A stretch of 46,536 nucleotides of DNA, from the NCBI GenBank assembly GCA_018398765.1, contig JAHBMJ010000505.1:1-46536 (forward strand). The letters are read 5' to 3'. The notes beneath the pieces were generated by a model. The model saw nothing but the letters and a program-made list of their open reading frames with translations, had not been told where the DNA came from and searched no databases. This document shows, one piece after another, positions 5,314 through 40,092 of this stretch (the first letter of the stretch is position 1; every line of letters starts with the position of its first letter). A program made the position numbers and the translations under genes. Origin of the DNA: Chromera velia. Lineage: Eukaryota.

Positions 5314-5482
5314 GCCCATGGTGGCACCGGACCGGAGACTTAATTCTGATATCAACAGTCTCTCAGCACAACCAGTTTGAGTCTCTTCAAGTAGCTTTAG
5401 TGAAGTGTCTTGACCCTCACGGTACTTTTTTTTTCGAAAAAACGAGCAGGGGCGGTTCTGGAAGTCCCTTTTTCCTCTTGTC

Positions 5483-7024
5483 ATGTCTGAAGATGCTTTT
5501 CAGAGGGCAAAGGAGTTTGGGAATGCCACCCAGCTCCTCAATGCTGATTCCCTTCTAGTTGTTAGATTGAAGGGGACATCAGTTCGGTTGGCTCCAAGCA
5601 CTGAGCGCGATCTAGAGGGCGCGGTGCAGAGAGGATTAATCAGCTGTACGGCCAGAGTCCATTCGTTTGTTGTTCGACATGTTGTTCTGTCTCTGTTCCG
5701 AAGGACAAGCATTGGGCCGCGGGAGAAGCCTAGACGGGTTCCCATCCTCTCCGCCCTCAGGACAGTGGCCACGGAAAGTATGTGGTAGCGCCTACAGCCC
5801 AGACGGATGTATGAAAAGAATTGGCGGTGGGCCTTCAAGTGTATGACCCAGGGGCAGAAGGGCGTCCTCATACTGTCTCTTAAGTACTATTTATTGCAAC
5901 TGACTGGAAAGTTTGAGGCGATATTTTTGACCAGAGAGGTCCTTTGGGGATACATCGGGGGGGAGGGGGGGACTGAGAGGTCGAGAGAGTTGCGTCCTCT
6001 TTGGAGAAGTTGGACAGAGACCCACTTTCTCTAGGTAGTGGCGCCTGAGAGGGTCCCGACTGATAACTTCTGAAAGATGGTCAGTCTGTCTGCTGGCCTT
6101 CTGGCGCCTTCTGGGGCTAGTATCCCCTTACCACTGCTTGCATGTAAAGACTCATTTGACTTCTGTTTCTCTTTCTGTGTTTTCTGTGCAGATGGACGCC
6201 CCCCTCATCTTCGTTATCCGTGGGGAGGCCCTGACTTTTTTGTTTGGAAAGGCAAGGCGGGAGCTAGGACTGGGGGTCCACCTTAAGGACATCTTTGGGG
6301 CCTCGTTCCCCGCGGGGCCTGTGTAGAGAACAATCGACGCCATGCTCTACATCGTGATGGAGAGCCTTGCAAGCCAAGGACGGGTTGACGTGGGGCTGTC
6401 GTACACCATCCAGAATGTCCTCCAACCTTCCGTCCCGACTCCTTCTTCTGCTCCCATCCCGGCTCCTTCTGATGACCAAGAGATGCCTCAGGTTGGTCAG
6501 CTAGTTAGGTTTTGGAGCTGGCATCACCTTATCACTGCTTGCATTGATGCAGTCAGCCAGTCGGCTAGTCAGTTAGTCAGTAATTGAGAGATCAATGACA
6601 TGCATGCATGTGTTTCTCAGTTGAGTTGAGTTAGTCAGTTTCTGGGCTAGTCAGGTTGCATATGTTAGCTCATAGTTCATAAATGAATGCAATGTTTACT
6701 CATACATAAATGCAGACAGAGGCGCAGGGACAGACTGACGAGCACAGAGACGAGCACCCTCTGCATGAAGGTACGCGCCATCACCTTTTTGATATCAAGT
6801 ATCGAAAAGGCATAACGTCTGGTCGTGCTTTCTCCATCACATACAGTACACTGATAGTCACACTGACAGTCACACTCACACGTACTCGATCACGTACATA
6901 TGTAGGCGCTGTGCATTCAAATTCATACTCACACTTGCACTTGCATGAACGTGCAGACACGTCAGGAATGGACGTGGACGATGAGGAAATCGATGCCGAG
7001 GAAGGGCTTGGATCTTACCCCTGA
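5483..7024 (+). pseudogene. Transposon partner gene of unknown family, ~340 codons; exons 5483-6079, 6192-6491, 6716-6770, 6957-7024
   Basis: ORFs 5483, 5807, 6138 and 6342 join through phase-compatible GT-AG introns. The only disruptions are point stops (TAG 5786, TAG 6032, TGA 6071, TAG 6324), with no frameshifts. Acidic C-terminus. Confidence 0.65.
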
Positions 7025-7040
7025 GTCAGTCATACATACA

Positions 7041-10000
7041 TCAACCCATGTCAACATCTCCCTCTTCCTCCCCTTCTGATTCACTTGCTTGCACTTCCTC
7101 TCCCTCTTGTCCTCTCTCGCCTCCTTTATCCTCCATATCCCCTTCTTCCCCCGATTCTCCCCCCTCCCCTTCGGAATCGATTTCCACAGCAGGAGGGGCC
7201 TCAGACTCGCTGTTCGAAAGAGCTTCCACAGGAGTCATCTCATCCTCTGCAATCACATCCAACCGAGTCTTCCCCATGCCATCCACCCGTGCGTTGATGC
7301 TTGTGTCATTGATAGCAAGGAAAGCCCTCAGAAGGTTGCGAACAGCAATCTGTGTGCCTGTGTCTCCTTGTGTGTTGGGGAGGGGTTTTGCTCCGTGACT
7401 TGCAGCACCTGTGGGGGCAAAAGCCTCTGCAACCATTCTATTGAATGCCTTATATGCCTGCATGCTGAAGTACTTTACGAAAGATCGGTAGTAGTAAAGG
7501 AAATAGTAGAAGGATTCGAGAAGATAGAGAGTGGCTGGGTACTGCTGTCCTGGGTGCATTTCAAGCCACACCCTCTTGAAGTCACGAACGGCTTTGGGGT
7601 AGCGAGCGATGTTTTTGTCGGAGGGGGCTGTTTGTCTGAGGGTGTGGAGGCAAAAGAAGAATGCAGAGAGACCTGAAAGCACTCTGTCGGTCTGTGGGTA
7701 TCCTGCAAGCGCCATCATGTTTTTATGCTCTTTTGAGAACACGATACAGTCTCTCCCTTGCAGTGAAAAGTCTGGCCACCTCTACTCTCCTTCGTCCAGA
7801 ATGGGCACCATTGTGGTTCGATTTCGAATGATCTTCTGCCTAAATTCATCCTGCAGACAATAAAAGGTTTTTCGTTCATACTTCCCATCTGCTGTGCAGT
7901 TGCATAGGTGGCCACAGAGGGTGGTGGTTTTTGCTTGAATGTCTGTTGCTTCAGTCGCATCATTCCACTCCTCCCCTCCTTCCATTTCTTCTTCTTCGTC
8001 TGCTCCTGCGGCAACGGCCGCTCCCTCCCCCCCTGCCCCCCCTTTACACTGCTCGCACTTGCACTTTTCCTGCTCCCACATATACGAGCGCAGCCCCCTT
8101 GTCACCGCCTCTGTCCCCCTCATTGCGAAGTGCAAACAGTCAGGGCAGACATGCTCGCCAAAACAGGCAGGCCAGAGAGACTCGCGCAGGGAGCCTATTT
8201 TCTTTTTGGCACAGGTCGTCGTGTGAGACCCAGGCCTCTTCTGTCCCTGCTTTGTGTTCTTGCAGTTGCAAGGCTTGGAGACCAATTCTGCATGTTTTTC
8301 TGCTGTGCGTGTGAACGGTGCAAGAAAGTAGACACCAGGCATGGGGTGGTTAGGGCACCCGACGAGCCGGAAACGGAGGACCTCCTCTTTGCGGAGAATG
8401 CAACTGCAGTCTCGTCTGACTCCATGTCTTGAACAAACTCGCTCTTTTCGTGACTTTGCATTTAATGTGTTCACGATGCATAAACATGCCTTCCTAGGAT
8501 AGAAAGGCATATTCTTCTCGCATGTTTCAAGCTTTTCAATCTCTTCTTTACTATCTAGGGTGAAATAGGAGGGGAAACTCCCTATGGCCCCCACAGTTCC
8601 GCACATTTTAGCAAAAGCGGACTGATCAGCTGTCCCCCACCAGGTCACTTTCACCTTTTTTCCCTTATACGGTCCGTCAGGCACCTCCACTCCCCCATTG
8701 ACTGTATTGATCCCCTCTAGCAGCTCTTTTGACTTGAAAAGAGCTTCTAGGGTATCCCTCTCCTCCTGCTAATTAGCTAGGCCAACGCAGAAAGAGAACT
8801 CTTTAGAAAAGAGCGCACGAAGAGAACCTGAGAGCGGACGTACAACGATAGAAATACAGGCCCCCCCGGCTTTCAGCCTAGTGGCCCGATTCCCATCGAC
8901 TGACAGACACAGTTCAATGTTGACAACCTCCTCTTCGATCTCCTCCTCGATCTCAAGACCTTCAGAAGTAGTCGTTGTGACGGTTCTCTTCTCCTTAGTG
9001 ATCACGCCGTTCTCTATGAGGAACTCGTAGCCATACTTGTCACTGAGAAGAATGTCGAGAAGGACCTTGATGTTACCAATGAATGGCTGGAAATAGTCAT
9101 TGTGGGACTTGCCAGTAAACTTCTTTACAACCTTCTGGAGGACTCTGCTCATTGATTTAAAAAAGCCAGCCTCCTTCAGTTTCTTTTGAAGTTCCGTGAG
9201 AGGGGCAAAAATCTGTATGTATATATTATAAAACATGTAATTTGATTTATATATTCTATCTAAAAGATATGTACGAACAGTTAAAAACCAATCGGCAGAT
9301 GATCATAATGGGACAAATGAAAACCAGTCAGCAAATCATGATGGTGGGACAAAAAGAAAAGAAGTTTTTGTTGGGACAAAATTAAATAATTAAAAGAATC
9401 ACATATAAAATTTTTTTTTTTCAGGTACGCCGCCCTACGAACCTCTTTCACAGAAGGAATGGAGGAGTCCTTCAGAAAGTTTTTCGACCGTTGCACTTTA
9501 GAGCGAGACAGACCCTCCTTCAACACAAACGCTGTCCATTCGTCGGGGGTTTTGGGGACTGCTCTAAATTCATGAAACTTTTTCTATAAGCACCGGCCCC
9601 TCAATCTGTTTACACGCCTTTCCCTTCCTGCTTTGTATCTCTGGTAAGAGTAGAGCCCAGACCTGGATTCTCTTTCACAATCTGTCACTCTCACTCTAAC
9701 ACTGCCTGTCCCGACATCATACCCTGCGGTCACCACCTTCTCCGTTTCTATAACGCTGGCCGACGTCACAAACGAGACTGCTGCACTTGTCAATGCGTCG
9801 GCTCTTTCCTCTGCAGGCAGCGTGGCGGTCCCGAGCATCTGATCCCATAAGCTTACCGTAGTCCGATGCAGAGTCTTGCAGAGGTCTTTGCCCTGCCTGG
9901 CATGTCTCACGGCAAAGAGATCTCTTACTGGCTTCTCCCTCTTTCTGGATCCGACCCTAGTCCAGTCATTCATAAATGCAATCGTCTTTGCTTGAGACCT

Positions 10001-11274
10001 CTTCGCCTTCTGCTCATTCTCCCCTCCATCTGAGCTCTCCAATTCTCCTTCCTCCGGAATGGTGTCTAGGAAAGGATAAAACCTGTCCTTCTCAAGCCCC
10101 TTGTACACGAAGTGTTTTCCCCTGGGTGTCCTTTCAAATGTCCCATCCGCTCGCCTCTTCTTGAGGTGGGGCGAATGGACAAGAGGCCGCTGACCTACAT
10201 ACATAGAAATATATATATATACAACGTTCAAGAATTGAAGGACTAAAATTCTTAATTACACAACGCTTCGCAAAGAAAAGGTGCTAAGCTCACAATAGCA
10301 CGCACAAACGTACATTCGCAGACAACCATACAGACGTACAGACAGGCAGACACCTAGACAGACAAGGCAGCTAGACATATACCATACAGACTGCTCGATC
10401 ATGCATATATTGTGACTGACCAGAGAGGTGTGGTGGTAGAGTTGGTGGCTGCCCTGCCAGACCAAAGGAAGGGCCGGCAATCTGCTTGGAAAAGGCGGCA
10501 CCGCGCGACGACGTGCTCACAGAGGCAGAAGGAGAGGCCTCACGATCGCTACCCTCCTCCCCTGAGACAATGTCGACGCCCCCCCCGTCCTCGCTCTCCT
10601 CATCTCCCCCTTGCCCCGCCTGCATCTTCCTCTTCTTCGATCGCGCCCTCTTCGTTGGAGAGGTGCATGCATGCTTCCTTCGGGCCTCGAGGGAGAGCTT
10701 GTACGGACGGCAGACTCTCATCCGGACATCGTGGAGCTCGGCCTTCTTCTTCTAGACCGAGCATCTCTGGCACGGCAAGCCAGTGGTGCCCTCTAGGCGG
10801 CCCATCCTGCTCCAATGAGAGGGGGCGGAGGAAGCCGCACGCGACAGCGAGCTTGCCGATACTGAGGCAGCCACCAAACCTGTAAGAAAGCATTGAAAAA
10901 ATCAGAAACGATGAGACAAGTGTTGCTTGCTGCAGCTTGGCATGCCTCTGAGTCGATCATTTGCAGAAACAGACGGACATCTGACATGATTTCATGTCAT
11001 ATGACTGACCACTGAGCTGCCAAAGGTCCTGGGCGAAGTCGTGGTCGTGGTCTTGGCCACGCAGATGCGAGCAGTCTTGATGTAGACGCTGCCTTCTACT
11101 CCTCCGAACACCTGGAGGGTCATCTTCTACTCTGGAAACCGGACCAGTGGTCCTCGGTGCAGCTGACTGGGGGATACCGACAGCTGCAGGCTGTCTGTCT
11201 GTCCTTGTACGACCCCTGCCTTGCGTTTGGGGGGGATCGGGCTCCTCAAAGCCCTCACCGTCTCTTCCTGACAT
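7041..11274 (-). pseudogene. RAG1/Transib/Chapaev-like DDE transposase, intron-containing, inactivated by point mutations
   Basis: ORFs 8769-9236, 7782-8690 and 7041-7742 are one frame broken by single TAG stops. Motifs follow RAG1-core order: LSVDG (D, 8895-8897), QEERDTL, GTADQSAFAKMCG (D, 8625-8627), PDCLH, LQGRDC, FSMQAY[K]AFN (third acidic residue read as AAG, 7449-7451). Upstream exons lie at about 9440-10195, 10420-10880 and 11010-11274 (boundaries approximate). Confidence 0.78.
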
Positions 11275-11470
11275 GAGAAAAAAAAACAGATCTGACCTTC
11301 AAAACTACTTCAAGACTACAAATCTCGATATTTGCATAACCAGTGGACCTTTTGGATCGCTTTCAACGCGCCGTTGTGATCAGGACAATGGGTTTAGAGA
11401 GTTGAATGCACTACTTTGATGCGTAGCCGACTATTCGGAAACATCAGAAATAAGTCGGCTATCCGGCGTC

Positions 11471-11510
11471 GGGGGGGGGGTATTCGTGCCGGGGCCGCCG
11501 CCCGCATACG
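11471..11510 (-). repeat. Right terminal inverted repeat
   Basis: Reverse-complement match to 5272-5313. Confidence 0.88.
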
Positions 11511-22495: not shown

Positions 22496-24897
22496 CCTTA
22501 TGTGCCACTGCTTCCGGGTTTGCCTCGTTGGTACTTATTGGAGGCTCCGACACTAGCTCCGACAGCTTCTCGCATCCATTTTTGGGTCCCCTGTCTGTTT
22601 CACCTGTGCAAACACTCCTGCATTGGTCTTCGATGATCGGAAAATCAGGCTACACAAGTCCTTACAAGTTCATGAACGCGTGTAAAGCGGCATTCTCTCG
22701 ACATGACACGAGTCGCTCAAGTAGCAATAAAAGTAAATGTGAGACAATGTATGAATCGAACAAGTGAATCCCAATATATGAACGAACCATAATGAATGAT
22801 TCACTATTCTCATACAATTACATGCTTAAATTGTTTTTACTCCAACTTTGATTGTTATATTTCATTTTTAGTGTAATTTTCACTCGGGCTGTAGTTTACA
22901 GTTTTACATACCGCATTTCGTACCGCATATTATCCGTATGTCCATATATTTGTGATAGTTTGGCCATGCACGATGTCAAGTTACGCCTGCCGCCCAACTA
23001 TAATTACATTAAATATATTTATGTTATGATCAAAATATGTATGTTATATTGGCTTAATAAAAAAGAGAGAGGAGTGTGATATATGAGGAATGGCTTTAAC
23101 GCGAATTAAAAGTCGTATTTTGAAAGACCTGCAAAGAAACTTTTTTCCACTGGTGCAGACAGTGGACTGTAGATTTTTATATGTGTTTCAAGCCTTTAGT
23201 GGTAAGATACCATAAGAAGAATACTCTGGAGATTGATAAAAATTTACCAAAAAAAAGGGGGTCAGTAAAATACTATAAGCGGCCTGACGAGGTGGCTTCG
23301 TAACGGGGCTCATAAATAGTAAGTCTCTGTTATGCACAGTCACTGTCAGTCAGTACTACAATCTCTTAGGTTCAACGTAAACAACAGATGACTTGCTATT
23401 AACTGCATGCGAGCATTATTAATTCTGCATGCATGTTGTGTGGTACGCTCGACGTCGCACCCACCGTAGATGCGGTTCTGACACAAATGCTTGTCATAGT
23501 CATAGTCCAACCACCACAATGCTACGTGCCCCCTCCCTCCAGAGTGGCGTCCCTGCCACTTAAATCGCATGGGGCAGTCATGCCATACACACTGCTAAGC
23601 AGAACAGAGTCAAAGACTCGCGTTTGCTATATTGATTGAGCTCACAACGGGGCCTTAAACCGTTGACTCAAGGCGGGGTCTCTTCTGTCACATGAAGGGC
23701 AGAGTTGAGAATTGCTCACAGGATTCGAACCTGTAGTTCAGCAGCGCAGGAGATATGCGGATTATATGATTGGTTTGTCCACAACCAACCTAGTCACCTC
23801 TGCCTAACTTCGTTGGTCACCAACTCCTGGAGAGTTCAGGGCCGACGACCTAAAATCGGAGTGTGTTTTGCGGAGTGTGTCATTCCGAAGAATTCACAAA
23901 GGCCCGAAAGACCTGAAAACGGAGTGTGATCACCATTATCAGTGTGTCACGGCCCGAGAACCTTAATACGGAGTGTGTTAGAGACATACACCGCGAGTTG
24001 TTGACCCACGCCTAACTTTAACTCTCGTCCTATCTCTTCTCCGATCGATCTGAGTGTCAGCCTTCTAGGTCAGCCTTCTTCTCGCAATCACACTGCGCTG
24101 ACAGTAAAGAGTTGTCTGTCCTTCTCTTTTCTTTGTTCCTTTTCAGTTGAAGTATCTTCTTCCATTCGCATTTATGCAAATGACATTGAAGTCAGTCTTT
24201 CTCGAAGGCAAAGATCGTGAATTCGATGATCGTTGCAAATGATTGTTCTGACAGCCAGCCCAGCGTAAAACACACACATGGTTAACACTGTGATAACCAT
24301 CCAAATTCTCTCATCGCTCCTTTGTTGTCTCGCCTTTCTTTGTAGTTTGTTTCTTTTCGTTACTATGACGGCTTCTCGTCTTAATTCCCTTTCATCTTTC
24401 TTTCCATCCACACCTCTCTCTCTCCTCTTACTACATGTTCCTTCTCTCTCAGAGAACCACTCACACTTATATGAACCTACGTGCCCCCTCGGAGTCCCTC
24501 CTCACCGCGTCCCCGCGGTCTAAGCACGCAAAAAACTTAGTACAAAGACGTGTATAACGGGTAAAAAAAAACGATCTAGGCAAACAACGTGAGATCAGGT
24601 GCTAACAGAATCTGACAGACACGCTGACAGATTGATCACCAAACGATCAAGCGGATGAAGGAAATAGAAATGAACTGCAAGCCAAACGCGAATGTGAGGT
24701 CTCCCTTTCCATTAATGCTCTTTCAACAGAAACCGATGGCTCAATCAAAGAAGACAACAGGTAATGTTCCTTACACCGGTAAGAGCAGGCAAAGAAAACG
24801 AACCAGATACGTCACAACGAGGTGAAGTGAAATGTAGATGGACAAACCAAGGTAAACGAGCACATAACAAAGCCAGGGCTCAAACGATTATGAAGCC

Positions 24898-25640
24898 TTA
24901 ATTCTTCATTTCTGCAGGCTTCACTGGCACTGGGAGGTCTTCAATCATTTTTGGAATACCCACTTGTGCCAGTTGACCAACCTCTTTCCAATACTCCCTC
25001 TTCTTCTCTTTGTAGAGCCGTACTGCTTCGCTATCTCCCTCCTGAGGCAGCAGCGTGAACACCTGCCGGGAAGAATGCGTTGGCATCATCTCACGCTTTT
25101 GTCTCTCGGCCTCGAGTTTCTCTGCACGAGCCTTCTCCTTCTCCTGTTTTATTTTTTGTTTCTTTGTTGGCTTGGGCCTAAGTTCCCACCTTTTGCCTCC
25201 ATCACCTTTGACTGCCACCGATTCTTTCACTTTCTATTCTTTCACTTCCTTCCCTCCGTGGCCTCTGCCTACCTCCAGGACCTGTGACTCAACGTCACCA
25301 CCCCTAGTAGACGAATCTGCTGGAGAGACAACAGTTAGTTGAATGACCTCTGACAAAGGGGCATCGAAGGCCTGACTCCCTCTGAACTCCTCTCTTTGAT
25401 GGGCTTCTCTTTTTCTTTCATTCCACTGTCATTCCTGTCCCCTCTCCCTCCAAAATTTTCTTCCTCAACCGACTGGTTATCATCTGGCGGGCCCACTGTG
25501 ACAGGTGGCTTTGATTCTGAGTCAGAAGTGCATGTCCGAAAACCTTCTCCTATCGGACTCAACTCTATCTGGTTGCAGCTGAGAGTTGGAGGTGCAATAA
25601 TGTTAGCGGCCCTAATCGATTCTAAAGCCCAGCCATACAC
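24898..25640 (-). pseudogene. Degenerate internal ORF(s) of the non-autonomous LTR element
   Basis: ORFs 25335-25640 and 24898-25230 lie in the element sense orientation, are charged and Lys-rich, and show no gag zinc knuckle or pol motif. Confidence 0.35.
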
Positions 25641-25989
25641 CTCCCTCTCACCCCAAATTTCTCTCTCACTTCTCGGTTGTACTTCTTTTATCTCTCTTTC
25701 CCTTTACCAACGGATGCTACTCAAATTGAATCTCAACGTTGGGGCCGTTGGAACGCTATACAGGGCAATAGGCTCAGTAGGCTGCCCAGCGTTGTTGCCA
25801 AAGCCTCTCGTCTCTACTCTCTTCTGCTGGAATGCATTGATTTTGGTCCTCTTCACGGTGACTATTTCCTTCTTCTACTCCCTCTTACCTTTTTTTCTAG
25901 GAGAAGACTGTCTACAGACTGTGCAAAAGACTATATCCAACTATTGATCGTCCTCGTCTATGAACTCTGTAACGTCTCTGGTCAGGCCA

Positions 25990-26001
25990 GCTCTGCTACC
26001 A
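25990..26001 (-). promoter_or_regulatory. Primer-binding site, initiator tRNA-Met type
   Basis: TGGTAGCAGAGC abuts the 5' LTR and matches the widely used iMet PBS TGGTA(T/G)CAGAG. Confidence 0.8.
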
Positions 26002-26357
26002 CCTAACGAGGTGGCTTCGTGATGACGCTCATAAGTAGTAAGTCTCTGTCATGTACAGTCACTGTCAGTCAGTACTCCAATCTCTTGGGTTCAACGTAAA
26101 CAACAGATGACTTGCTATTGACTGCATGCAAGCATTATTAATTCTGCATGCATGCTGTATAGTGCGCTCAACGTCGCACCCACCGTAGACGTGGTTCTGA
26201 CATAAATGCTTGTCATCGTCACAGTGCAACCACCACAATACTACGAGCGGGAAGCATGTACAAGGAATTAATTGAACATTTAACTGAACCGAATGTATTT
26301 AATTTGTGATCATCAAAAAAATTAAGGATTTGATAAATTAAATTGAGCTTCACAGCA

Positions 26358-26430: not shown

Positions 26431-26744
26431 GATTTGTTTAGTTCTATTGAGCCGAGACTTCTTTTGCTATGACGCTCTATAGGCCGTGTGCATGCTGTAG
26501 CGCTCTATTGGCCGTGCATGATATCTGAACAGTTCTGCGCGTGGCCCCCGTCCATCTATATTGGTATGCATGTATGCGTTCACATATTTCCGGACATGCC
26601 GTAGCCTTGAAAATGTTCATGCATCGTATCGCACATACGTGAAGCAACAGTGCAACAATGCCGTCTCATCATATTCAATTTCCGTTCTCATTGTATGCAA
26701 TACAGAATCGAATTTATATATTCGATTGAATCGATCGATCGAGT

Positions 26745-29640
26745 GACTGTGAGGAGGCTGTGCGTACGTGTCCAGTCTGTCCTGCAGTCAATGCGGTGAA
26801 GCGACAGATTGGGAGTCGAGACGACTCTGAGCAGAACAAGCATCCCTTCAACTACAAGATCTTTCAGGACTTGACAGAGATATACGACAAAGGAATAGGT
26901 GGATTCGTCTACCTCTCTGTCATCGTTGACAGCAGCAAGCGCTTCAAGTCCCTCATGGCACTCACTACCAAGGATACCGCCCTCGATCACCTCATTGCCT
27001 GGACTGCCAAGTGGGGGGCACCCACCTGTGTCTGCACAGACAACGGTGGGGAGTTTATCAACCACGAGTACAAGAAGTTCTGTCGAGAACGAGGCATCAC
27101 ACATCTGACTGGGCTCGCGTACACTCCGGCAGTTCAGGGCATCGTCAAGAAGGCCAACAGAGAGATTAAGAAGGTGATGAAAAAGTTGCTTGATCAGTAC
27201 AAGTTCCCTCATTCTACCTGGCCCGCACTCCTTCCGGGTATGTGCTATGCTCTAAACACCACTGTACATTCAGTGTTGGGTGAGTCACCGTTCAAAGCTG
27301 TCTATCGCCGTCTTCCCCCCATGCACTCACTTCTCGTTGGCATACCCGTGCTTGCTTTTGATCCAAAGCCTCGAACGAAATCATTGTTTCTAAGGGGTGA
27401 AGTGGGCATTTTTGGGGGCGAGTGGAATGAGTCTTCCTACTCTGTTCTTGTAAAAAGAGAAAACAGATGGACAGCTTTGCGTCTGCATCCTGAGGCTCGC
27501 TACGTTCGTTCTGTTCACTCCTTTACTGCCTCTCATCTGCTTCCACTGCCGTCTGTTCCTGTGTTAACGGAAGTTGTCAGTGGTGATAGTCCACAGGAAG
27601 ACGAGTCGCATGCACACAGAAACAGAGAACAGACATCCATTGAGCTTCAGCCAGGTGTCGGTGTCTTTGCTTCTTTTGAGCATGGAGGTCCCACTTTCCC
27701 TGCTATCCTTGTTTGAGTCATACGTGCATCCGTTGATGTCTTTTTCTTGACAAAGCTTGATGGAATGAAAGGATGGAAGCGAGGAGAAATTGCTTATCTG
27801 CCGAAAGGAAATATTTCTTCTTCTTTCCCTCTTGAGGACGGTGAGCCTCCTCTCCATCTATCTACCTCTGAGCCCTCCGTGGCTTTAGGGGGCGGGCTAG
27901 GGGGCGGGGAAATGAATGTCTCTCTTTTTGAAGCCGCTCCATCTCTAAATAAACACATGGATGAGCCAGAGGCGGTCGATGGGGACTGGATCTTCCCTCC
28001 AGATCAGGAAAGGGAAGTGAAGATTGCTGACCTCTGCAAGCTCGTTGAGATGGCTGCCTCCGCTTAGGCAGTCAAAGTCCCAAAAAGTCATGTACCTGCG
28101 ACGAAAGAGGAGATAGCAAAGGGTGATTTCGATGAGTTAATCCTCATTGAGATGCGCAAGTACAAAAAAAACCTTGCCATCTACGTCATGGAGAAGGGAG
28201 AGATGCCTCCTGACTTCGACAAGGCCATTCCGATGCACTTTGTCCTGATGTGGAAGCTCAAGGGCAACCGCCAAGTTCCTAAAGCATGCCTCGTTATCAT
28301 GGGTCATCGAGATTCCATGGTGATCGAGACCTTCTCTGGCACTCCCGATCCTGGCCTCGTCAGAGCAGCTATCATCTACGCCCTTAGCAACTCCTTCGCG
28401 TGCGCTAAGTCTGACGTGTCCACAGCTTTCTTACAAGCCCCCATAGATGTGGGGAAGAAAGTCTACATCAAGCTCCCCACCGAGATTCCCGCTATCATGA
28501 CTGAAGAGCTTCCGGAGTACATACCGGGGGCGATTGTAAGTGCCAACAACGCCCTCTACGGATTGAAGTGGAGTCCACGCGTCTCTACTAAGTGGTTCAA
28601 GTCCAAGGCGAAGAAGTTTAGTTTCGAGCAGGCAAGCGAGTCTATCCTCGTTTGCAGAGATCCTTCAGGAGAGATCGATACCATTTTGATCATATATGTT
28701 GATGATCTTTGGGCATGGGGAAAGGATCCGATGGACATTCTCTATGCCATCAGGAAAGAGGTAGACATGGACCCTCCCAAGCTGCTCAGTGATGGTGCTC
28801 CACATACCTACGTCGGACAGACTGTCAGAATCATCAATAACATGCTGATCATCGACCAGACTGATTACCTTCAAGCGCTGGAATGTCTGACGGAGCTGGG
28901 GGATAAAGGAAAGAGAACTCTTCGCAGGTCTGATTTTTTCCCTTCCTCTCTCGATAAATCTGTTAATCCCTTGCTTGTCTCTCAGTATCAGTCATAGATA
29001 GGCAAGTTAGGATGGGTGTGTCGTACTCTGCCTGCCTATGCATTCGTATTCTCGTCCCTTTCACGATTCAATACCAAACCGACTGACCGATTGATTAATA
29101 CCCTTCGTCGTGTGATTGTACATGCACAGCTTTATGCAAAGCCTCTTGTCTTTGTCCGTCTGTTGTCCGTCCCTCTCCTTCGCGTCTGGTCAGATCTAGG
29201 GTCAGATGCATCTTTTTCTCTCAGAGAATATTCTGCACAGATAGGATTTGAGATTCAGTTGTTGGAGAAAGATGCTTCTCTGCCAAGCAAGAAAGAATGC
29301 AACACTGTTTTCTGGAAGTCACGTTCTCTGAAAGTGAAAGTCAGCTCAACAACTTCGGCTGAACTGATTGCTCTGCGCGATGTGGTTTAGGATATGGTGA
29401 AAGCTGCCTTTGAGTACTTTTGTTTTGTAGAGACGATGTGGAAAGCCAAGCCAACAGTTCAGTTCATTCTTGACTTTCAACCTCTGCTTGCACAGCTGGT
29501 CTCTGGTCGTGCCCATTCTGATCCCAGTCAGCAAGGCATGCTTGAGTTTATGCTGCAATGCAGAAAGGAAATGAATGCAGAGTTCGTGTATACGCGTGCG
29601 TGTCCCGACAGACGAGATGAGAGCAGATAGAATGACGAAG
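26745..29640 (+). pseudogene. Copia A pol remnant (integrase, reverse transcriptase, RNase H)
   Basis: CPVC, FQDL, IVD, TDNGGEF, GIVKKAN (integrase); SDVSTAFLQ, LYGLK, IYVDDL (RT); VWSD..ASF, SSTTSAEL (RNase H). Scattered in-frame stops. Confidence 0.93.
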
Positions 29641-30707
29641 TGTCTTCTGTCCGAGTGAGACTGTGAATTAAAAGAAGAATTAAAGAAGAAACGGCAAGCT
29701 GATAGTGATTGAGCGTTCTTTGTTTGTATGTTTCTTTTTCTTCATCTTCCTCTTTACATGTCTTCATGATTCTGTTCTTTTCCTTTTCTTTTCTTCGTTT
29801 CACTTTTACTCCCATATGACAAGAAAGTGAATGAAAGCATTTCATGCAATTTCATGCTTGTTGTTCGATTCTTTCTCGCAAGCTTTGTTTTCTTATTTCT
29901 TATTATGATTGATCTGGTCCTTCGCCGAAGATTGAAAGCTTTTGGTTATTTTTTAATCATTAATGCTTCAGTGAAGTAAGCCTGTCTTGCATGTGCATCC
30001 ATTGTGTCTGTTTGTGTTATGAATGTCAGTCAAGCATTACTCGTATCGTTGCAACGACACTCAGGGGGCGATCTGTTGAGCCGAGACTTCTTTTGCTGTG
30101 GTGCTCTATAGGCCGTGTGCATGCTGTAGCGCCCTATTGGCCGTGCATGATATCTGAACAGTTCCGCGCGTGGCCCCCGTCCATCTGTATCGGTGTGCAT
30201 GCATGCGTTCGCGTATTTCTGTGAATGTGATGGTCGGGGCGGGGCTGACGTGCGTGGCCCGATCAGATACCGCAGCGTGAATTCCTGGGGGGCCACGGCA
30301 TACGCGAGCGTGTGGGGGCCACGTGTTTTGCTGAGGAGACGGAGTTGATTCAGACTGATTGATCTGATGGCTGTGTGATTGAGAGTTGTCAGTCTGTTGT
30401 CGTACATCAGACAGTGCAGATCGTAAGATAAACAGACACCGCGCGTTTTAGACACACGTTCTCGTAGGCAGCTTATGTGCGTGTCTCGTCTCCAGCCTGA
30501 ATTAATTGAGGCTTCTAGATTGATCAGCAAAGGAACCTCTCGGAAAGGGAGCAATGCATACGGTGAGTTTGAACAGACCCTTATGTATCGTGTGCGTTGA
30601 GCAGCGGCAGCCTTCTAAACGTCTGAAAAACATTCACACCGTCATAATTTGGTGTTCTCCACGCGGGCTCAAACGTTTCGTTCTCTTTTTGTTGCAGACG
30701 TCTCGAA

Positions 30708-31781
30708 ATGCCAGGAGACAACTCCCAGGTTCCTGCAGCTGCCGGTGCTTCCCCTTCTCCTTCCAAGCCCCATGACTTCAACTGGGTGAACGAACTGAAC
30801 TCCATGGAAGGTTTTGAACTTTGGAGGAGAGAGTTCCTGAAGTTTGCCAAGTTCCAGCTCAAGGCCAAGTTCATTCCGGATGATGATAAGAGGAAAAAGC
30901 TCTGGACCCTGGTGTTATTGCGTGCTTTCAAGAAGTTCGACGACTTCAAAGACAGCATGCTCACCATCAAAGAGCAGGAGCAGAAGTTTGGGGAGGATCT
31001 TCTCGCCGTTGTCGCCGTTACGATTCTTGATCCCAAGGAATCGGAGCGCAGACAGTTCGAAGAGAGGTACATTGCGATGAAGAGAGAGAGGAGAGACGAC
31101 CTTTTCCAGGCCCTGGTGAAGGAGGACAAGCTCCTTGCCAAGGCAAAGGTGAAAGGCTACAAGCCTGATCCTTCCACTCAAAAGCGCACTCTTGAGAAGA
31201 TGTACTTGAATAAGGAGTGGCTGGATGGAGTGAGGAGGGCAGCCAGTGAATTGAAGAAGGAGTCCGATGCTCTAACGTATGCCGAGATCCATCCCCGTCT
31301 CGTCGAGGATGCCAAGATCCTCCATGGGAAGAGGGTTAGCAGGCAGGTGGAGGAGTCGTCCAAGCCTAAGACGACCCCACCTCCCAAGTATCAGGAGTTT
31401 TCTGGGGCGGCAGAGGGACGTGCGAAGAAGGGAAAGAAAGGAAAGGGGAAGAAGGGCAAGAAGGAAGTGACTCCCTCCCATGACGCCAATGCTGCTTCGT
31501 CCAGCAGCTCCCCATCCGGTCCCTCCAGTTCCCGCTGCTCCAGCTGCAGGTTTGTGCATAGGGGAGAGAAATGCCCTGCCAAGAACGCTACCTACGGCAT
31601 GAAAAACACGCCTGGGTGTGGGGAGAAGGGACATTTTGTGAGCTGCTGCCCGAAGAAGAGACAGCAGGGGAGAGAGGCCGCCGGGGCAGCGATTCCACGA
31701 GTCTCCGGCACCACCTTTGATATGAGAAAGGGGGATGAATGGGACGAGATGTCCTCCTCCTCTGCCAGTTCGGGTTTGTGA
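30708..31781 (+). CDS. Gag of Copia B
   Basis: 357-aa ORF directly after the PBS, with a C-terminal zinc-knuckle-like CGEKGHFVSCC preceded by a second Cys/His cluster. Confidence 0.85.
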   Translation: MPGDNSQVPAAAGASPSPSKPHDFNWVNELNSMEGFELWRREFLKFAKFQLKAKFIPDDDKRKKLWTLVLLRAFKKFDDFKDSMLTIKEQEQKFGEDLLAVVAVTILDPKESERRQFEERYIAMKRERRDDLFQALVKEDKLLAKAKVKGYKPDPSTQKRTLEKMYLNKEWLDGVRRAASELKKESDALTYAEIHPRLVEDAKILHGKRVSRQVEESSKPKTTPPPKYQEFSGAAEGRAKKGKKGKGKKGKKEVTPSHDANAASSSSSPSGPSSSRCSSCRFVHRGEKCPAKNATYGMKNTPGCGEKGHFVSCCPKKRQQGREAAGAAIPRVSGTTFDMRKGDEWDEMSSSSASSGL

Positions 31782-34700
31782 GTATCCCTGCCTTTGGGGG
31801 GCAAAGCAGCTCTTCCCCGGAACGCAGGGCAAATTCCAGAAGAGCTGCAGGGCGGGGGGGGTTCATTCGAGCCACCCTCCGTAACGCTGAGAAGTTTGCT
31901 GATGATGAGTTTGATGAAGTGGTGGAGAATAGACCAGTGCATCCTGTTGCGGCTTTTCTTGTCGCTTTCGTAGGAGAAGAGGAAGACAACTGTCAGTCGG
32001 GATTGACTGACAGTGGTTGTTCTTTATCTCTTTTTCCTCCTTGCTGTGAGAAGTTTGTTGTGTTGGAAGAGAGTAGGACAGTGCAGTTCCGTCTCGCTTC
32101 TGACGTTGCAGGCCTCTAGAGTGATAAGGTAAAGACGTGTCACCTCCCCGTTAAAGACAAAACGGGGAGGGTGCGTCTGGTACCTGAAAAAGCCGTCATT
32201 CACTCGTCCGTTGGTCGTGCTCTTTTCGCGTGTGCAAAGAAAGAGCTTTATCTTGGGAGAGAAAGTGGGAGGCCGAGTTGGCTGAGACTTACTGACATCG
32301 ATGGCAATCGTTTTGTTACGCCTGTTGATCAGTCTCGTTCTGTTCCTTTTGTTCTCTTTTTTGAGACTGAGGTGAAAGACTGATGGGGGGTGGCGTCGGC
32401 ATACTTGAGGAGGAGTGCAGACATGGCAGTTCAGCCAGCCAAGTCTCTTCATTCTTGTTTTTTCTCTGCATGTGCGGGGGAAGGGAAAGATGAGACGTCT
32501 CTTTCTGCAGAAAATAGAAAGCATCTCCTGTATGTGCTGCATTCTCATCTTGTGCACGCAACGGGGGAGCGACTCCTTTTGACGTTGAGAGAGAAGGGGG
32601 TCGGTCTCTCATACAGCCTGCAAGAGTGCAAGGATGTGCGGAGGGAGTGTAGGGCGTGTCGGAAAGTCAACTTCCGCCGTCGACGTTTGAAGCGTCGGGG
32701 GTGGAAGGCCAAGAAGCGTGGAAAGAGAAAGAGGGCTGGGGTAGAGGAGGCGCCCTCCGGAGTGGGGGGTGACGATGAGAGCGAGGGGAGTGACGAAGAG
32801 TCGTCTTCGGGGGACAGGCATCCCTCGGAGAAGTTCAACAGGATCATTTACCACAACATCAAGAACATGAAGAAGAAGGGTTACGGGGGGTTCAGATATA
32901 TCTCCGTGATTGTTGATTGGAAGTTCCGTTGCGTCTCTCTGAAGGCCCTTTGGTCGAAGGACCATGCAGAGAGGCACCTTCTTTCGTGGATCCGCCGTTG
33001 GGAGGTTGCTGGTTTCGGAAAGCCTCTGATTGTTCAGTCAGACAACGGTGGGGAGTTTTTAGGAGAGGAAAGGTATCTTTGGGTGTATGAAAATGAGGGG
33101 GTTGATAATGAATTTGGCCCGCCAGGCACTCTTGAGGTTCAGGCATTCGTAGAGAGAGCCAATTTGACCTTCATTTCTCTTTTGAACAAATTTTTATTGC
33201 AAGCACGCATTCTATTTTTCATGTGGCTGGCTGTCTTGCCGGGTGTTGCCAATGCACTGAATGATGTGGTACACAATTCGATCGGCCGTTTTCCGAATGC
33301 GTGTGTGTTTGGTCGGCCGTCTGGCATTCCCTCCATTTTTTGCGGTGATGTCGTGCGCATCACTGACCCTTCTTTCCGTCATTCCTTGCCCTTCGAAAAG
33401 AGTGAGCGTGTTCTTTTCGGGGGGGTAATAGGGCCGAGGGTCGTTTTGGTTCTTTTCTGCCGGGGAGGGAGATGGAAGGCACTGCGGGTCCATCTATTTC
33501 ACATCGTTCTAGAAGAGTGGGTTAGCGTAGGAACAAGAGACTTTGATGCCGACCGAAGGGGAATAGATGGAAGGAAGGAGCAGGAGATTCCCAGCAGAGA
33601 GTCAGACGGAGACTTCTGGGTTAGGTGGGATGCCGATGATGACCGCACAGATGGGGTGGTCGGGTCTGATGATGCGTTGTCAGACCATATGGATGCAGAG
33701 GGTGAGTTGCCTCCTGTAGATCCACCCAGAGGTGTTCGTTCCTCTGTGCTGAAGGGCGTTCTCGCGAGAGAGTCCAACGGCGCCCTCTTCCCTGCTCAGA
33801 TAGATAGAGAGGGGGAACAGCAGTTGAGGGGGGTGAGCATTGCAAGACTGAAGAAGCAGGAGGATGGTTCTTTTCGTCTTACCGAGTTTGATCGAATCGC
33901 ACAGAAAGACATCGTGGAGCGTTTTAATCTGCCTGCCGAGGGCAGACTCCCCGAGTCTATTCTGCAGCGCCTTGCAGAGGAGGCTCCACAGCCAGAGCCC
34001 CCAGTCCCTCAGCCTGTCACTGAGAACTCCGATCCCGTTGATGTTGACTTTCCATCCCCCGTTGATGGGGTGGTAGAGCAAGTTGCCAAAGAAGCGAGAG
34101 CAGCTGAGTTTGTTCGTTGGTCACAGATGACAAAGAAACAAAGGAAAGCAGCAGTGAGGGAGAACAGAGAGAAGCGATGCAAGTTGACAGAGAAGCGGAT
34201 CAGCAAGGCAATGGACATGCACTTTGAAGTCGCGTGTGCCGTCCTGAAAGCAGAGAGAGCGAGAAAGCTTTTGCAGAGAGAGAACAAAGCAAAAGGACAC
34301 ATTTTGGCCACCGAAGAGGAGATAGAGCAAGGTCTCTTCAAAGAGGCAGATCGGAAAGAGCTGGTTCGGTGGTGTGTTTGTTCTGTTTTTGATTTGTCTT
34401 CGCAGACTTTGACTCCCCAGCCGGGGGTGAAGGGTATCACCCTCCGTTGGATCCGGACGTGGAAGCTGAAGGAGGGGAAGAGAGTTGCGAAGTCAAGGCT
34501 CGTTGCCCGGGGGTTTCATGACCCTCGAGATTCAGAGCTTCTCGAAACCTACTCCGGGACTGCAGATGCAGGCCTGACAAGGGTTGCGTTTGTTTGGGCC
34601 CTCAGTCGGGGGTGGTAAGCAGCGAAGGTCGATGTGTCGACTGCCTTCCTGCAGGCTCCGATCGGTGAAGGTGTGTGGCTTCGTTTGCCTAATGACCTGC

Positions 34701-36650
34701 CGATTGAGGTCTATCCTGGCTTGCATTGTGGGGTGTACATCAAGATTGTGAAGGCCGTCTACGGACTGGCCGATGCTCCCAAGTGTTACACCGATTTCTT
34801 CAAGAAGAAGGTTCGTGGGCTGGGGTGAACAGAGGTTTGTGAGTCGATTCTCGTGAAGAGAAACAGAAAGGGGGAGGCGATTGGTTTGATGGTGATGCAC
34901 GTAGACGACCTGTTTGTGTTTTCTCCGTCTGTCGATGACGATATAGCAGCAGTACCTACGATGTTCAACACAGATGAGCCTAAGCGTATGGACAACGGAG
35001 AGATGCACACCTATGTTGGCATGTCGGTGCGCATGAGGGATGGTGAGATGCTCCTTGATCAGAGCGTCTACATCATGAACATGGCAGAGTCTGTCAGTCC
35101 AGAAGCGAAGAAGCCACTCACAGACAAAGACCTCCTTCTCCCGACTGAGAAGGATGTCGATCCTTCATTGTAGAAGGAGCAGCAAAGGAATGTGGGGGCA
35201 TTGGGATGGGCGGTTCGCACCCAGCCTAGCCTCTCATTTTTGTTTTCCCACCTGTCCCGCTCAAACACCCATCCGTCTCCCTAGTCCGTCTCCTGCCTCT
35301 GTGCTGGCTACTGAAAAAGCACTGTGGCATGCAAAGGTGACGGCCAAGCCTTTGAAGCTGAAAAAGGTGAGAGGGGTGCCCGTACTTGTTGTGTGGGTCG
35401 ATGCGTCCTACCAATTAAGTTTGAGAGAGGGGAGATTGGGATGGGAGATGCAGATCCTTGATCAAGAGGAGGTGGGTGATTTGGAGAGAGTGAGTGAGCA
35501 CAACACCGTTGTGTTCGCGAGCAAGAAGTGCACTCGAAAGCTCGGGTCCACCACCACTGCAGAGTTGTTTGCGATGCGTGATGGTGTCAAGCTTTCCTTC
35601 AGTGTGTTTAACTTGATTAAGAAACTTTGGGGGGTGTTTCCCAAGGTTCTCGTTGTGAGTGATTCGCAGACCTTAATGAATCAGTTGGCCAGTAGGCAGT
35701 GCAAGAGTGAGCCTCATCAGCAGGTTGAGCTTGAGTATGTCTTGCAGGAGTTAGCAGATTTGGGGGCAACGGTTAAGTGATGATTGAGGTTTTTGTTATG
35801 CATGCCGCGTCCCCGTGTATGAGGGGCGGATCTAGCCTAGTCTGTCAAAAGGTTCCGGTTCGTCCCGTCTGTTCTGAATCTAGGAACACTGCTTATTGAT
35901 CACTTTTACTGCGGCTTATTTCTCAAGCGGCGGTAGAGTAGAACTTGGAGAACAACGAAAAGAGGGGAGAGGCAGGGCAAAAACTTTCTAAAAGTTTGTC
36001 CCCTTGGCAAAGGCTCCCCTTTGACGGCAGAGAACAACTTCAAAGAGACCCCCCCCATTAATTTGCCCCTCATTTTCTCAACCTTCTTTTCTTCCTTTCC
36101 TTTCATGCGTTTGCCCCCCCCTTTTTTTCCCTTCTTGTTTGTATACAAAGAATCAATTACAAAAGGATCGCTTAGTTTGCGCCCTCCGAGTCAAAAGACC
36201 TGGAGAACGCTGCAACCTCCCTACCGAGAAGGCACTCAGGCTGGAAGGGCCCTCTGGTTCCCCTCCTGCTGTGAATTGAACAGAGAAGATTTGCGGCAAC
36301 GAAACGCTGTAGCGTACAGGAAAGAACTTTATAATACCGGTCCATCAGCCTTGTCTGCACTGCCTCGTCTCCCTCTCATCCTCTCACTCTTCTGGCTCCC
36401 AACTTCGCTATCTCTTTCAAAAAATGAATTGTCCCCTCTCCTGGTCTCCCATATGTCTCAAACACAAGAGGAACAAACCGAAATCCAATTTCATGACAGA
36501 TCTCACCATACCTATCGTTTTTAACCTTTTTCATCGCCTTTGCTGCCAACCCTACTGTTTTTGCGAATCTTCGCAGGCGGTTGGCAACGGTTAAGTGGGT
36601 GCCCACTGGTCAGTAGAAAGCTGATCCTTAGACCAAATTTTTGAAAGTCT
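31772..36650 (+). pseudogene. Pol of Copia B (protease, integrase, RT, RNase H), interrupted by a LINE at 35780-36582
   Basis: LTDSGCS (protease); H..H..CRAC, SDNGGEF, VERAN (integrase); DVSTAFLQ, YGLADAP, HVDDL (RT); VDASY, TTAEL, SDSQ (RNase H). Frame resumes as KWVPTGQ*KADP after the insertion. Confidence 0.93.
35780..36582 (-). mobile_element. 5'-truncated non-LTR retrotransposon with restriction-like endonuclease C-terminus (CRE-like)
   Basis: 15-bp TSD GGCAACGGTTAAGTG at 35765-35779 and 36583-36597. Minus-strand peptide AAKAMKKVKNDRY..FRFVPLVFETYGRPG..LSCTLQR resembles the RLE C-terminus. Short TCA-repeat 3' tail. Confidence 0.85.
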
Positions 36651-37449
36651 GAACGTTCTGGTGTTGGCGTTACGTGCAGTCACATTCTATGCATGCGTGC
36701 ATGAATGGAATTCATGGGGGGTGATTGTGAATGTGATGGTCGGGGTGGGGCTAACGTGTGCAGCCCGATCAGATACCGCAGCATGAATCCCTAGGGGGCC
36801 ATGGCATGCGCGAGCGTGCGGGGGCCACGTGCTTTGCTGAGGAGACGGAGTTGATTCAGACTGATTGATCTGATAGCTGTGTGATTGAGAGTTGTCAGTC
36901 TGTTATCGTGCGTCAGACAGTGCAGATCGTAAGATAAACGGATACCACGCGTTTTAGATACATGTTCTTATAGGTAGCTTGTGTGCGTGTCTCGTCTCCA
37001 GCCTGAATTAATTGAGGCTTCTAGATTGATCAGCAAAGGAACCTCTCAGAAAGGGAGCAATGCATACGGTGAGTTTGAACAGACCCTTATGTATCGTGTG
37101 TGTTGAACAGCGGTAGCCTTTTAGATGTCTAGAGAACATTCACACCGTCATAATTTCTGAACATGCCGTAGCCTTGAGAATGTTCATGCATCATATCGTG
37201 TATGCGTAAAGCAACAGTGCAACAATGCTGTCTCATCATATTCAATTTCCGTTCTCATTGTATGCAATACAGAATCGAATTTGTATATTCAATTGAATCG
37301 ATCGATCGACTGATAGAATTGATTTACAATTTAAGCATGTGGATCTAAATCAATTTAGCTAATTGATTTGATAGACTTGTATGACTTACAAGTGTCTGTA
37401 CGTTTGCATATATACTATCAGACCTTCTGAATATCTTACCAACAATTGT

Positions 37450-38077: not shown

Positions 38078-40092
38078 ATGCAGAGCGTGTTGGCCCCAGG
38101 AACAAAAGTCCTCATCTCAGGTCTGCAAAGCAACGCAGGCCTTACCTTGAATGGGAAGGTGGGCACGATTGTGAGGCAGCTCCCAGGAGGGCGCTACACA
38201 GTGCGAATGAGAAGCGACAGATCTGAGAAGTCAGTGAAGAGGATCAACCTGCTCGTCATGTCCTCACAAGGACCGGGGCTTGACGACGACGTCGCCACAG
38301 GTAGGTTTCGAGTTGCTTACATGCAAAGGCGAATGGTACCTGCGTGCAGTCCTTTCCAACGGTTCCTCTTGACTTCTTCCGGCCCTTTCTGCTCTATCCA
38401 AACCTATCCACTGGCTGCCTGTTCCCCTCTCGTCGACCCTGCATGTGCTTCCACTAGTCGTCTCCAGCACTGACATTTCTCGAAATCCCCATGCATACAT
38501 AGATTTGCGCATGCATGCCGCTTTGCTGTCTGGAAGCTTTGGGTACCCACCAAATGATGACTGCTGAGCCTCCCATTGTGTGACTGCATGTGTGCCCTCT
38601 TCATGGCATGTTTGCAGTCCTGATTGAGTACATGCGGTGCCACGGGGTCAGCGCTCTGTTCACAGAGGTAATCTCCCTCGTGAAATCCGCTCTTTGTGCC
38701 GCACGAACTGTAGCCAGGAGGTTTCCACGGAACAGGCAACAGTTGATGCTCCTCACGCAAGAAGGAAGAGAGGTGGCAGAGAGATATGGGAATTGGGCTG
38801 CTGACAAGGCGATCACTGTCGCCAAGATCGTCTCGCGGAAGTCGCCAGAATTCCTCAGACAGACAAATACAATGAAGTACATCATAGAGACCCCCACCTG
38901 TGAGATCAAGGCCTTCATCACAGCGTATGTGAAGGAAGGGGTGGTCTTCTATGTTGCCAAGATCGTGGGCCCCATGCGCACCTTCACTGTCCTGTACGTG
39001 GTACCTGTGCAAAACTTCTGCAAGCGACACGCCACCAAAGCTTACCAAGCCCTCCCCCCCAGAGTGAAGAAAACCGTCGAAGCCACCCCTGCTGCTTTCC
39101 GTCAGTCTCTCACCACTGTGCGCCAGCAGATCGGCCGCAACACGCAGCAACTGGTGCTTCGTGCCAGACAGGGGGGACAGGTTGCAGAGAAATGCGCTGA
39201 CTGGGCTGTTGATAAAGTGATCGATGCAGCCAAAATGGTCTCCAAAAAGTCCCCAAAATTTATCAAAGAGACACAAACAGCCGAGTACATTCTAGACACT
39301 CCAAAGAACGAGATCAAGGCATTCATCAAGGCCTGGGTGAAGAGACGGGTTGCCTTCTACACAGCCAAGATCAGGGACCCCATGGGAACCCTGAAGACCC
39401 TCCTGAGTACCCTCCAAACTTTCTCCCAGAAATATGCAACCAGGGCCTACTCTGCGCTCCCCTGCCGTGCAGACATATTGGCTCTCCCCTCCACTGTCAG
39501 GCAAACCGTCGCAGCCACGCCTGCCATTGTCGGTCAGAAATTCACCACCGCCTACGAGCTTGCCGTTACACAGTCAACCCGAGTCGAGGCATTCGTCAGA
39601 GCCTGCATGGTCCGTCTGCCCTTCCTTGCCGAATACTCAGACGTCGAACTCTCAGATATCAGAGAGTATCTCATCCAGCAAGCTGCTTCCGGCTTGACCG
39701 CACTCAAGCACCCCGTCGCTACCACCAAAGCCGTGGTATCCTTCGCAAAGAGAACCGGAGGACTCGCGTACGCAAAGACAACCGAAGCCGCCGCGGCTAC
39801 TGTAGGCAAAGCGGCCGCTGCCGGAAAGGCCGTCGTGAGCAAAGTGAAAGAACCCGCTCGCAAGACGGCAAAAAGAGCGATCCAGCAAGCACAGAAGGTG
39901 TCTGAGAAGGTGAAGCTGTACACCCCCCCCTACATCAAGTCTGCAGCAGAGAGCTGCGCGTCGAAGGTGAAAGGAGTTCTTCAGGCAGTCGGGGGAAGCG
40001 GCACTCCCGAAGCGGTGCTTGACTTCGCTGCGCGCGTCCTGATGGTCTCATGGATCATGGGTGCGCGGTTGGAGCGGGAAGGGAGGGAGTGA
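38078..40092 (+). CDS. Hypothetical protein: N-terminal KOW/SH3-like module plus Ala/Lys/Val-rich helical region with a ~136-aa internal duplication; exons 38078-38300, 38618-40092
   Basis: A phase-1 GT-AG intron joins GTKVLISGLQS..LNGKVGTIV..GRYTV..VKRINL to a ~490-codon open frame. Repeats start QQLMLL (38737) and QQLVLR (39145). Confidence 0.75.

What the first reader, a model, noticed from the sequence alone, without database searches (positions are those of the whole stretch)
30220..37152. RIP-like transition-only mutation of repeats in an apparently non-fungal genome
Seen: the two 427-bp LTRs of Copia B differ at about 35 positions by manual alignment. All are C/T or G/A, with no indels, mostly at CpG and CpA/TpG. 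The other LTR pairs show the same bias. Most premature stops in element ORFs are TAG/TGA. Catalytic acidic residues are lost by G>A: transposase E>K, Copia A integrase GIVKKAN, Copia B integrase YHNIK. The three host genes stay open. Established: CpG decay follows 5mC deamination, and CpA>TpA in duplicated DNA is the fungal RIP signature. Inference: a repeat-targeted methylation/deamination defence acting at CpR.
Basis: partly seen in the sequence, partly recalled or inferred. Interest (0 to 1): 0.75.

Follow-up and report, generated by a model that had tools for sequence, protein, structure and literature searches.

The report
Alga's transposons riddled with C-to-T mutations
In the coral-associated alga Chromera velia, a free-living relative of malaria parasites, transposon copies differ from each other almost only by C-to-T changes, mostly before G or A, while one family of duplicated host genes does not, likely because the cell methylates its transposons and so mutates them into inactivity, a defence resembling one known from fungi.

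Summary
Confirmed and extended. The two 427-bp LTRs of Copia B differ at 35 sites, all transitions, no indels. Three LTR-type pairs pooled give 79 transitions to 6 transversions. The host is Chromera velia CCMP2878 (100% match to Cvel_17919). Across five Copia B copies, polarised amino-acid changes are 85 C>T/G>A, 5 reverse and 15 other, on both strands. CpA mutates as often as CpG and about 3-fold more than CpY. The pattern is dinucleotide-based, not plant-like CHG. A second Copia family (35:2) and a TIR-bounded element (16 of 16) show the same transition excess, which argues against reverse-transcriptase error. A recent host paralogue trio does not (23 transitions, 27 transversions). Classical RIP is not met: RIP indices are negative, no strand clustering was detected, CpG is hit equally, and the paralogues are spared. 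Best reading: transposon-targeted CpR methylation with deamination. C. velia has five DNA-methylase genes; its transposon-poor relative Vitrella has none. No methylome or single-copy neutral DNA could be tested. I found no report of this in print.

The parts
30220..30646 (+). Copia B 5' LTR; carries the T/A state at 12 of the 35 differences
36726..37152 (+). Copia B 3' LTR; carries the T/A state at 23 of the 35 differences; 5-bp target duplication at 30215-30219 and 37153-37157
30708..31781 (+). Copia B gag-like ORF; 31 of 32 differences from copy P0017 are transition-reachable
31739..35780 (+). Copia B pol (integrase, RT, RNase H region), 5 premature stops, integrase D>N at 32855, 13-bp insertion near 35272-35293 shifting the frame
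35780..36582 (.). ~800-bp nested insertion flanked by an exact 15-bp direct repeat; pol tail resumes at 36584 with two more TAG stops
26443..26746 (+). Copia A 5' LTR (right end approximate)
30072..30219 (+). Copia A 3' LTR, left half (split by Copia B)
37153..37313 (+). Copia A 3' LTR, right half
26730..29591 (+). Copia A pol remnant (rve, RVT_2), 4 premature stops, third integrase acidic residue read as K at 27147
23283..26248 (.). Element C: 247-bp direct repeats (23283-23529, 26002-26248), 20 ts/5 tv, 12 of 20 at CpA; no Pfam domain in 5 internal ORFs tested; putative non-autonomous LTR element
5272..11510 (-). Element with 40-bp terminal inverted repeats and a long stop-interrupted frame (7041-9302), putative DNA transposon; 16 of 16 differences from a 93% relative are single transitions
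38608..40092 (+). Host gene Cvel_17919 (control and host identification); its family supplied the paralogue trio Cvel_710/28358/15825

Best explanation
Transposon copies in Chromera velia accumulate C>T changes on both strands after insertion, equally at CpG and CpA, likely because a cytosine methyltransferase marks transposon DNA at CpR and the methylated cytosines then deaminate and escape repair. Shown: the spectrum, its direction, its context, its presence in two Copia families and one TIR element, and its absence from one host paralogue trio. Inferred: methylation, the enzyme, targeting by element identity or chromatin rather than by DNA pairing, and the defensive role. The effect is inactivation by stops and loss of catalytic residues at only a few percent divergence.
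For: LTR pairs 79 ts/6 tv in 983 columns; per-C rates CpG 32/144, CpA 33/171, CpC 6/84, CpT 8/106. Polarised over 1002 codons of 5 copies: 85 C>T/G>A, 5 T>C/A>G, 15 not a single transition; rates CpG 19/310, CpA 21/370, CpT 11/453, CpC 9/526, T>C 4/1550. Changes are private to copies (77 singletons vs 5 shared-derived in 513 columns). Second Copia family 35 ts-only vs 2 tv-only. TIR element 16/16. Host trio 23 ts/27 tv, direction 14:9 (p=3e-8 and 1e-4 against Copia B). Two other window duplications 19 ts/11 tv vs 79/6, p=3e-4. C. velia has 5 DNA_methylase-domain genes and Vitrella 0 (PMC5890265 supplement); TEs total ~30 Mb vs 1.5 Mb (PMC4501334).
Against: No methylation data seen. The classes of the five methyltransferases are unknown and may include tRNA-type Dnmt2; C. 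velia has 0 MBD genes. CpA>TpA runs ~22-fold above T>C, more than the ~10-fold cited for passive 5mC deamination (PMC2996936), so passive decay would need near-complete methylation of an asymmetric site. The host control is one family, protein-level, under selection and of unknown age. A 38-nt tandem array at 17672, not known to be a transposon, also shows 16 ts/3 tv, though without CpA bias (1 of 16). CpG o/e is low in host genes too (0.70-0.75 vs 0.47-0.71 in element ORFs). The TIR pair itself is 2 ts/2 tv, and a transcript 98.9% identical to the TIR element's ORF exists, so that family is not wholly silent.
Confidence: 0.55

Rival explanations
1. An enzyme-driven repeat mutator: a methyltransferase (or a deaminase partner) actively converts C to T at CpR in transposons, like fungal RID or the mitotic Dim2 mutator, evolved independently in an alveolate.
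For: CpA rate equals CpG rate and is ~22-fold above T>C; Ts/Tv 13 in LTR pairs against ~2-2.8 in methylated wheat TEs; load differs 12/18/47 per 513 columns among copies of a star-like family; the two halves of the Copia A LTR pair carry opposite loads (11:1 vs 4:8, p=0.009, post hoc). Precedent: Dim2 in Zymoseptoria (PMC8016269).
Against: No strand-coordinated runs in 8 series (p 0.11-1.0; small samples); RIP indices negative; host paralogues at 91-95% protein identity are intact and unbiased; Dim2 spares CG whereas here CG is hit equally; unequal load may be unequal age.
Confidence: 0.27
2. A genome-wide C>T mutation bias at CpR that is visible only in transposons because they alone evolve neutrally.
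For: CpG is mildly depleted everywhere in the window; host trio transitions lean 14:9 towards T/A; 38-nt array 16 ts/3 tv; no single-copy neutral control was available.
Against: Host trio has more transversions than transitions, and selection is expected to favour transitions rather than remove them (general knowledge); a 14:1 per-site C>T to T>C ratio fits poorly with GC3 of 0.59-0.73 in host frames; duplications at 15405 and 40054 lack the bias.
Confidence: 0.13
3. Reverse-transcriptase error or APOBEC-type editing of cDNA during retrotransposition.
For: Some G>A excess on the coding strand in other copies (43/1040 G vs 17/619 C; 11 of 13 in P0010).
Against: Differences lie between the two LTRs of one insertion and on both strands; the window copy has 13 G>A and 12 C>T; a TIR-bounded element with no RT domain detected shows 16/16.
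Confidence: 0.04

Closest known systems
Fungal RIP (Neurospora, RID-dependent)
   Same: C>T on both strands of repeats, CpA hit strongly, elements inactivated by stops
   Different: CpG hit as often as CpA; no TpA enrichment; light load; host paralogues spared; no strand clustering detected; timing and enzyme unknown
Dim2-dependent mitotic CA>TA mutation in Zymoseptoria tritici (PMC8016269)
   Same: Transposon-restricted, almost purely C>T, CpA elevated, linked to a methyltransferase rather than a shown pairing step
   Different: >98% at CA and CG spared there; CG and CA equal here, CpY also ~8-fold above T>C
5mC decay in plant transposons (wheat, PMC2996936)
   Same: Excess transitions in TEs relative to genic DNA, visible between LTRs
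   Different: Ts/Tv ~2-2.8 and CG, CHG above CHH there; Ts/Tv ~13 here with CYG 2/69 but CAH 23/124
TpCpG hypermutation of Pucciniomycotina TEs (PMC3318451)
   Same: RIP-like pattern inferred from TE alignments without a known mechanism
   Different: No 5' T preference here (TCG 5/30 vs ACG 10/44, GCG 11/40); CpA equally hit

Membership tests
RIP (Neurospora type) | C>T transitions on both strands of repeats | tested here: met
RIP (Neurospora type) | CpA is the preferred target | tested here: inconclusive
   CpA > CpY (p~0.001) but CpA = CpG (p=0.58, 0.87)
RIP (Neurospora type) | Composition indices TpA/ApT > 0.89 and (CpA+TpG)/(ApC+GpT) < 1.03 (thresholds recalled) | tested here: not met
   Copia B 0.38-0.71 and 1.19-1.56; only element C repeats are borderline (1.06/1.05, 0.94/1.12). 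A light load need not shift indices.
RIP (Neurospora type) | Homology-triggered: hits any sizeable duplication, including genes | tested here: not met
   One paralogue trio, 91-95% protein identity, 23 ts/27 tv; DNA identity and linkage unknown
RIP (Neurospora type) | Strand-coordinated clusters of mutations (recalled) | tested here: inconclusive
   Runs tests on 8 series of 2-35 events, none significant
RIP (Neurospora type) | Premeiotic timing | not testable with these tools
   needs crosses or mutation accumulation
RIP (Neurospora type) | RID/Masc1-type methyltransferase | not testable with these tools
   No genome held; only a count of 5 PF00145 genes in print
Plant-type CG/CHG/CHH methylation decay | CG and CHG mutate more than CHH | tested here: not met
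   LTRs: CYG 2/69, CAG 10/42, CAH 23/124; ORFs: CYG 6/219, CAH 17/264
5mC-driven TE decay (general) | Excess C>T in TEs over genic DNA | tested here: met
   (protein-level control only)
5mC-driven TE decay (general) | 5mC present on the elements | not testable with these tools
   no methylome or reads available
APOBEC/RT cDNA editing | One-strand bias, confined to retroelements | tested here: not met
   both strands; TIR element affected
Ty1/Copia retrotransposon (elements A and B) | LTRs, target duplication, integrase before RVT_2 | tested here: met

The most novel reading that the evidence does not exclude
Chromera velia runs an active, enzyme-driven C>T mutator aimed at transposons with a CpR target: a RIP-like genome defence evolved outside fungi, in the photosynthetic sister lineage of apicomplexans.
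Probability: 0.27. Interest if true: 0.85.

Novelty: new variant of a known kind. Interest (0 to 1): 0.6.

Why it matters
Repeat-directed CpA hypermutation is treated as a fungal trait (PMC12543289 restricts it to a few ascomycete clades within fungi). Here an alveolate shows it with a context (CpA = CpG > CpY) matching neither the plant nor the fungal patterns I compared. It makes a sharp prediction for an apparently unmeasured methylome, points at five uncharacterised methyltransferase genes, and bears on how the lineage leading to apicomplexans controlled its transposons. Practically, LTR-based insertion dates in C. velia would be badly inflated: Copia B has 8% transitions and no transversions.

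Tried and rejected
No genome held; no sequencing reads could be laid, so no SNP control. LTR 34-mer and Copia protein scans of metagenome contigs found nothing. The phosphatase query found no Chromera hit; the atlas gave no hit for Cvel_17919; 6 of 6 window ORFs were absent by exact look-up. Composition and RIP indices do not separate elements from genes. Microsatellite interruptions (16 ts, 17 tv, 1 N) were mostly array switches and uninformative. Apparent patchiness within Copia B (1/253 vs 24/560) is partly an artefact of my majority rule: the three-copy table shows 6 more window-private changes in the 'clean' stretch; dropped. CHG methylation rejected. Transposase family not identified. 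Methyltransferase classes not found: no Chromera mention in supplements of PMC9998398 (22 of 23 files readable) or PMC11244446; PMC12695648 lists only MT-A70 genes; one paper not held. Three look-ups of earlier findings returned nothing.
Full report
Observation. The two LTRs at 30220-30646 and 36726-37152 align without gaps and differ at 35 of 427 positions, all transitions: 16 CpG, 12 CpA, 5 CpT, 2 CpC. The element is a Copia (integrase then RVT_2) inserted with a 5-bp target duplication into the 3' LTR of a second Copia, A. A's LTRs differ by 24 transitions and 1 transversion; a third repeat pair (23283/26002) by 20 and 5. Pooled: 79 to 6 in 983 columns, p=9e-9 against a 2:1 expectation and 0.008 against 5:1. 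Rates per cytosine, assuming the C/G state is ancestral: CpG 32/144, CpA 33/171, CpC 6/84, CpT 8/106; CpA vs CpY p=0.0009, CpG vs CpA p=0.58. For Copia B alone the CpA excess is marginal (p=0.049).

Host. The ORF at 38608-40092 is 100% identical to Chromera velia CCMP2878 Cvel_17919, and Copia B has 85-93% identical relatives among C. velia gene models.

Direction and generality. Using window codons and the other copies' residues (columns next to gaps or in poorly matching flanks were dropped), about 90% of differences are transition-reachable against 32% under uniform change. Polarised by majority over 1002 codons: 85 C>T/G>A, 5 T>C/A>G, 15 not a single transition. Per-site rates in the four other copies are CpG 19/310, CpA 21/370, CpT 11/453, CpC 9/526 and T>C 4/1550. 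Both strands are hit (window copy 13 G>A, 12 C>T; other copies 43/1040 G, 17/619 C). In 513 three-copy columns 77 changes are private and 5 shared-derived, so they arose after insertion; load is 12, 18 and 47 per copy. A second Copia family gives 35 transition-only vs 2 transversion-only changes in 407 columns. The TIR-bounded element at 5272-11510 differs from a 93% relative at 16 of 230 residues, all single transitions, 13 with T/A in the window; its contexts (6 CpA, 3 CpG, 5 CpT, 2 CpC) are too few to show a CpR bias. This argues against RT error or cDNA editing, with the caveat that the element's family was not identified.

Context. The preference is for the next base being a purine. It is not CHG: in LTRs CYG is 2/69 while CAG is 10/42 and CAH 23/124; in ORFs CYG 6/219 and CAH 17/264. 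There is no 5' T preference.

Controls. Three paralogues from the family of Cvel_17919 (Cvel_710, 28358, 15825), at a protein divergence like that of the Copia copies, give pairwise transition-only to transversion-only counts of 17:21, 14:16 and 15:11, against 35:3, 20:3, 29:1 and 50:4 (and 8:3, 5:2 in short overlaps) for Copia B. As unique events: 23 ts, 27 tv, direction 14:9; p=3e-8 for spectrum and 1e-4 for direction. Two other duplications in the window (15405/15958 and the 40054 tandem) give 19 ts/11 tv with no CpR bias. Against my reading: a 38-nt array at 17672 has 16 ts/3 tv (1 at CpA), the TIRs are 2/2, CpG is mildly depleted in genes too, and the paralogue control is one family under selection.

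12 of 13 premature stops are TAG/TGA; the six with a visible homologous residue are each one C>T or G>A away. Copia B D>N is real at a CpG and shared with one other copy. Copia A E>K is supported by alignment. The transposase K is shared with a 58% relative, so that claim is unsupported.

Mechanism. Shown: spectrum, direction, context, spread over element types, absence from one gene family. Inferred: methylation at CpR by a de novo-type methyltransferase, followed by deamination. C. velia has 5 DNA_methylase-domain genes and no MBD gene, Vitrella none of either (PMC5890265, supplement row; I also read passages and the first part of its results); TEs are ~30 Mb vs 1.5 Mb (PMC4501334, passages). 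This is a two-species correlation only. That Dnmt3-type enzymes prefer CpG then CpA is recalled, not checked. The strength of the CpA effect (~22-fold over T>C; Ts/Tv 13) exceeds wheat TE values (10-fold, Ts/Tv 2.8; PMC2996936, passages) and keeps an enzyme-driven mutator open, as shown for Dim2 in Zymoseptoria, where however >98% of changes are at CA and CG is spared (PMC8016269, passages).

Against RIP proper: indices negative in Copia B (thresholds recalled), no strand runs detected in 8 small series, CpG equal to CpA, paralogues spared. It works somewhat like RIP but should not be filed as RIP. Definitions from passages of PMC12543289 and PMC3318451.

Novelty. Ten literature searches were run. 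Those naming Chromera with RIP, cytosine methylation (25), DNA methyltransferase (28), DNMT (31) or Dnmt5 (78) listed nothing on this by title or abstract; broader ones (23, 42, 64, 69, 87) listed no chromerid paper, and one search listed only fungi. These were seen as listings only. Subscription papers, figures and bioRxiv supplements were not searchable and could hold a C. velia methylome or DNMT classification. Verdict: a real, quantified, transposon-associated CpR hypermutation in an alveolate; new variant of a known kind; interest 0.6.

Noticed in passing
window 35780-36582: ~800-bp insertion in the Copia B pol tail with an exact 15-bp flanking repeat, as expected of a non-LTR insertion; its first ~74 nt recur at 26364 and 37450, each beside an LTR. 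The 37450 copy differs from it by 3 changes, all C>T/G>A at CpR.
   Followed up: partly
window 35272-35293: 13-bp insertion with a 9-bp duplication that frameshifts pol; could be a DNA-transposon excision footprint.
   Followed up: no
window 26443-26450 and 30072-30079: Copia A's 5' LTR begins TA where the 3' LTR begins TG, i.e. the terminal dinucleotide itself appears hit; both Copia B LTRs end in TA rather than CA.
   Followed up: partly
window 26730: Copia A lacks gag and protease: the integrase zinc-finger region follows the LTR directly (internal deletion).
   Followed up: no
window 5272-11510: TIR-bounded element whose cysteine-rich protein has no Pfam or PDB match and only two cluster-level relatives among 1.8 billion representatives; a transcript 98.9% identical exists. 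Possibly an undescribed transposase family.
   Followed up: partly
window 38608-40092: Cvel_17919 has an internal duplication (38768/39176, 70%) and belongs to a small family of unknown function seen only in C. velia; four 92-99-nt tandem units overlap its 3' end.
   Followed up: partly
window 4100-5270, 11520-12900, 22600-23280, 42800-43420: AT-rich islands (29-38% GC) in a 49% GC window, three of them beside elements; could be old decayed repeats or ordinary intergenic DNA.
   Followed up: no
protein P0016: An uninterrupted 1116-aa Copia pol, 33-44% identical to Copia B, from an unnamed metagenome record.
   Followed up: no
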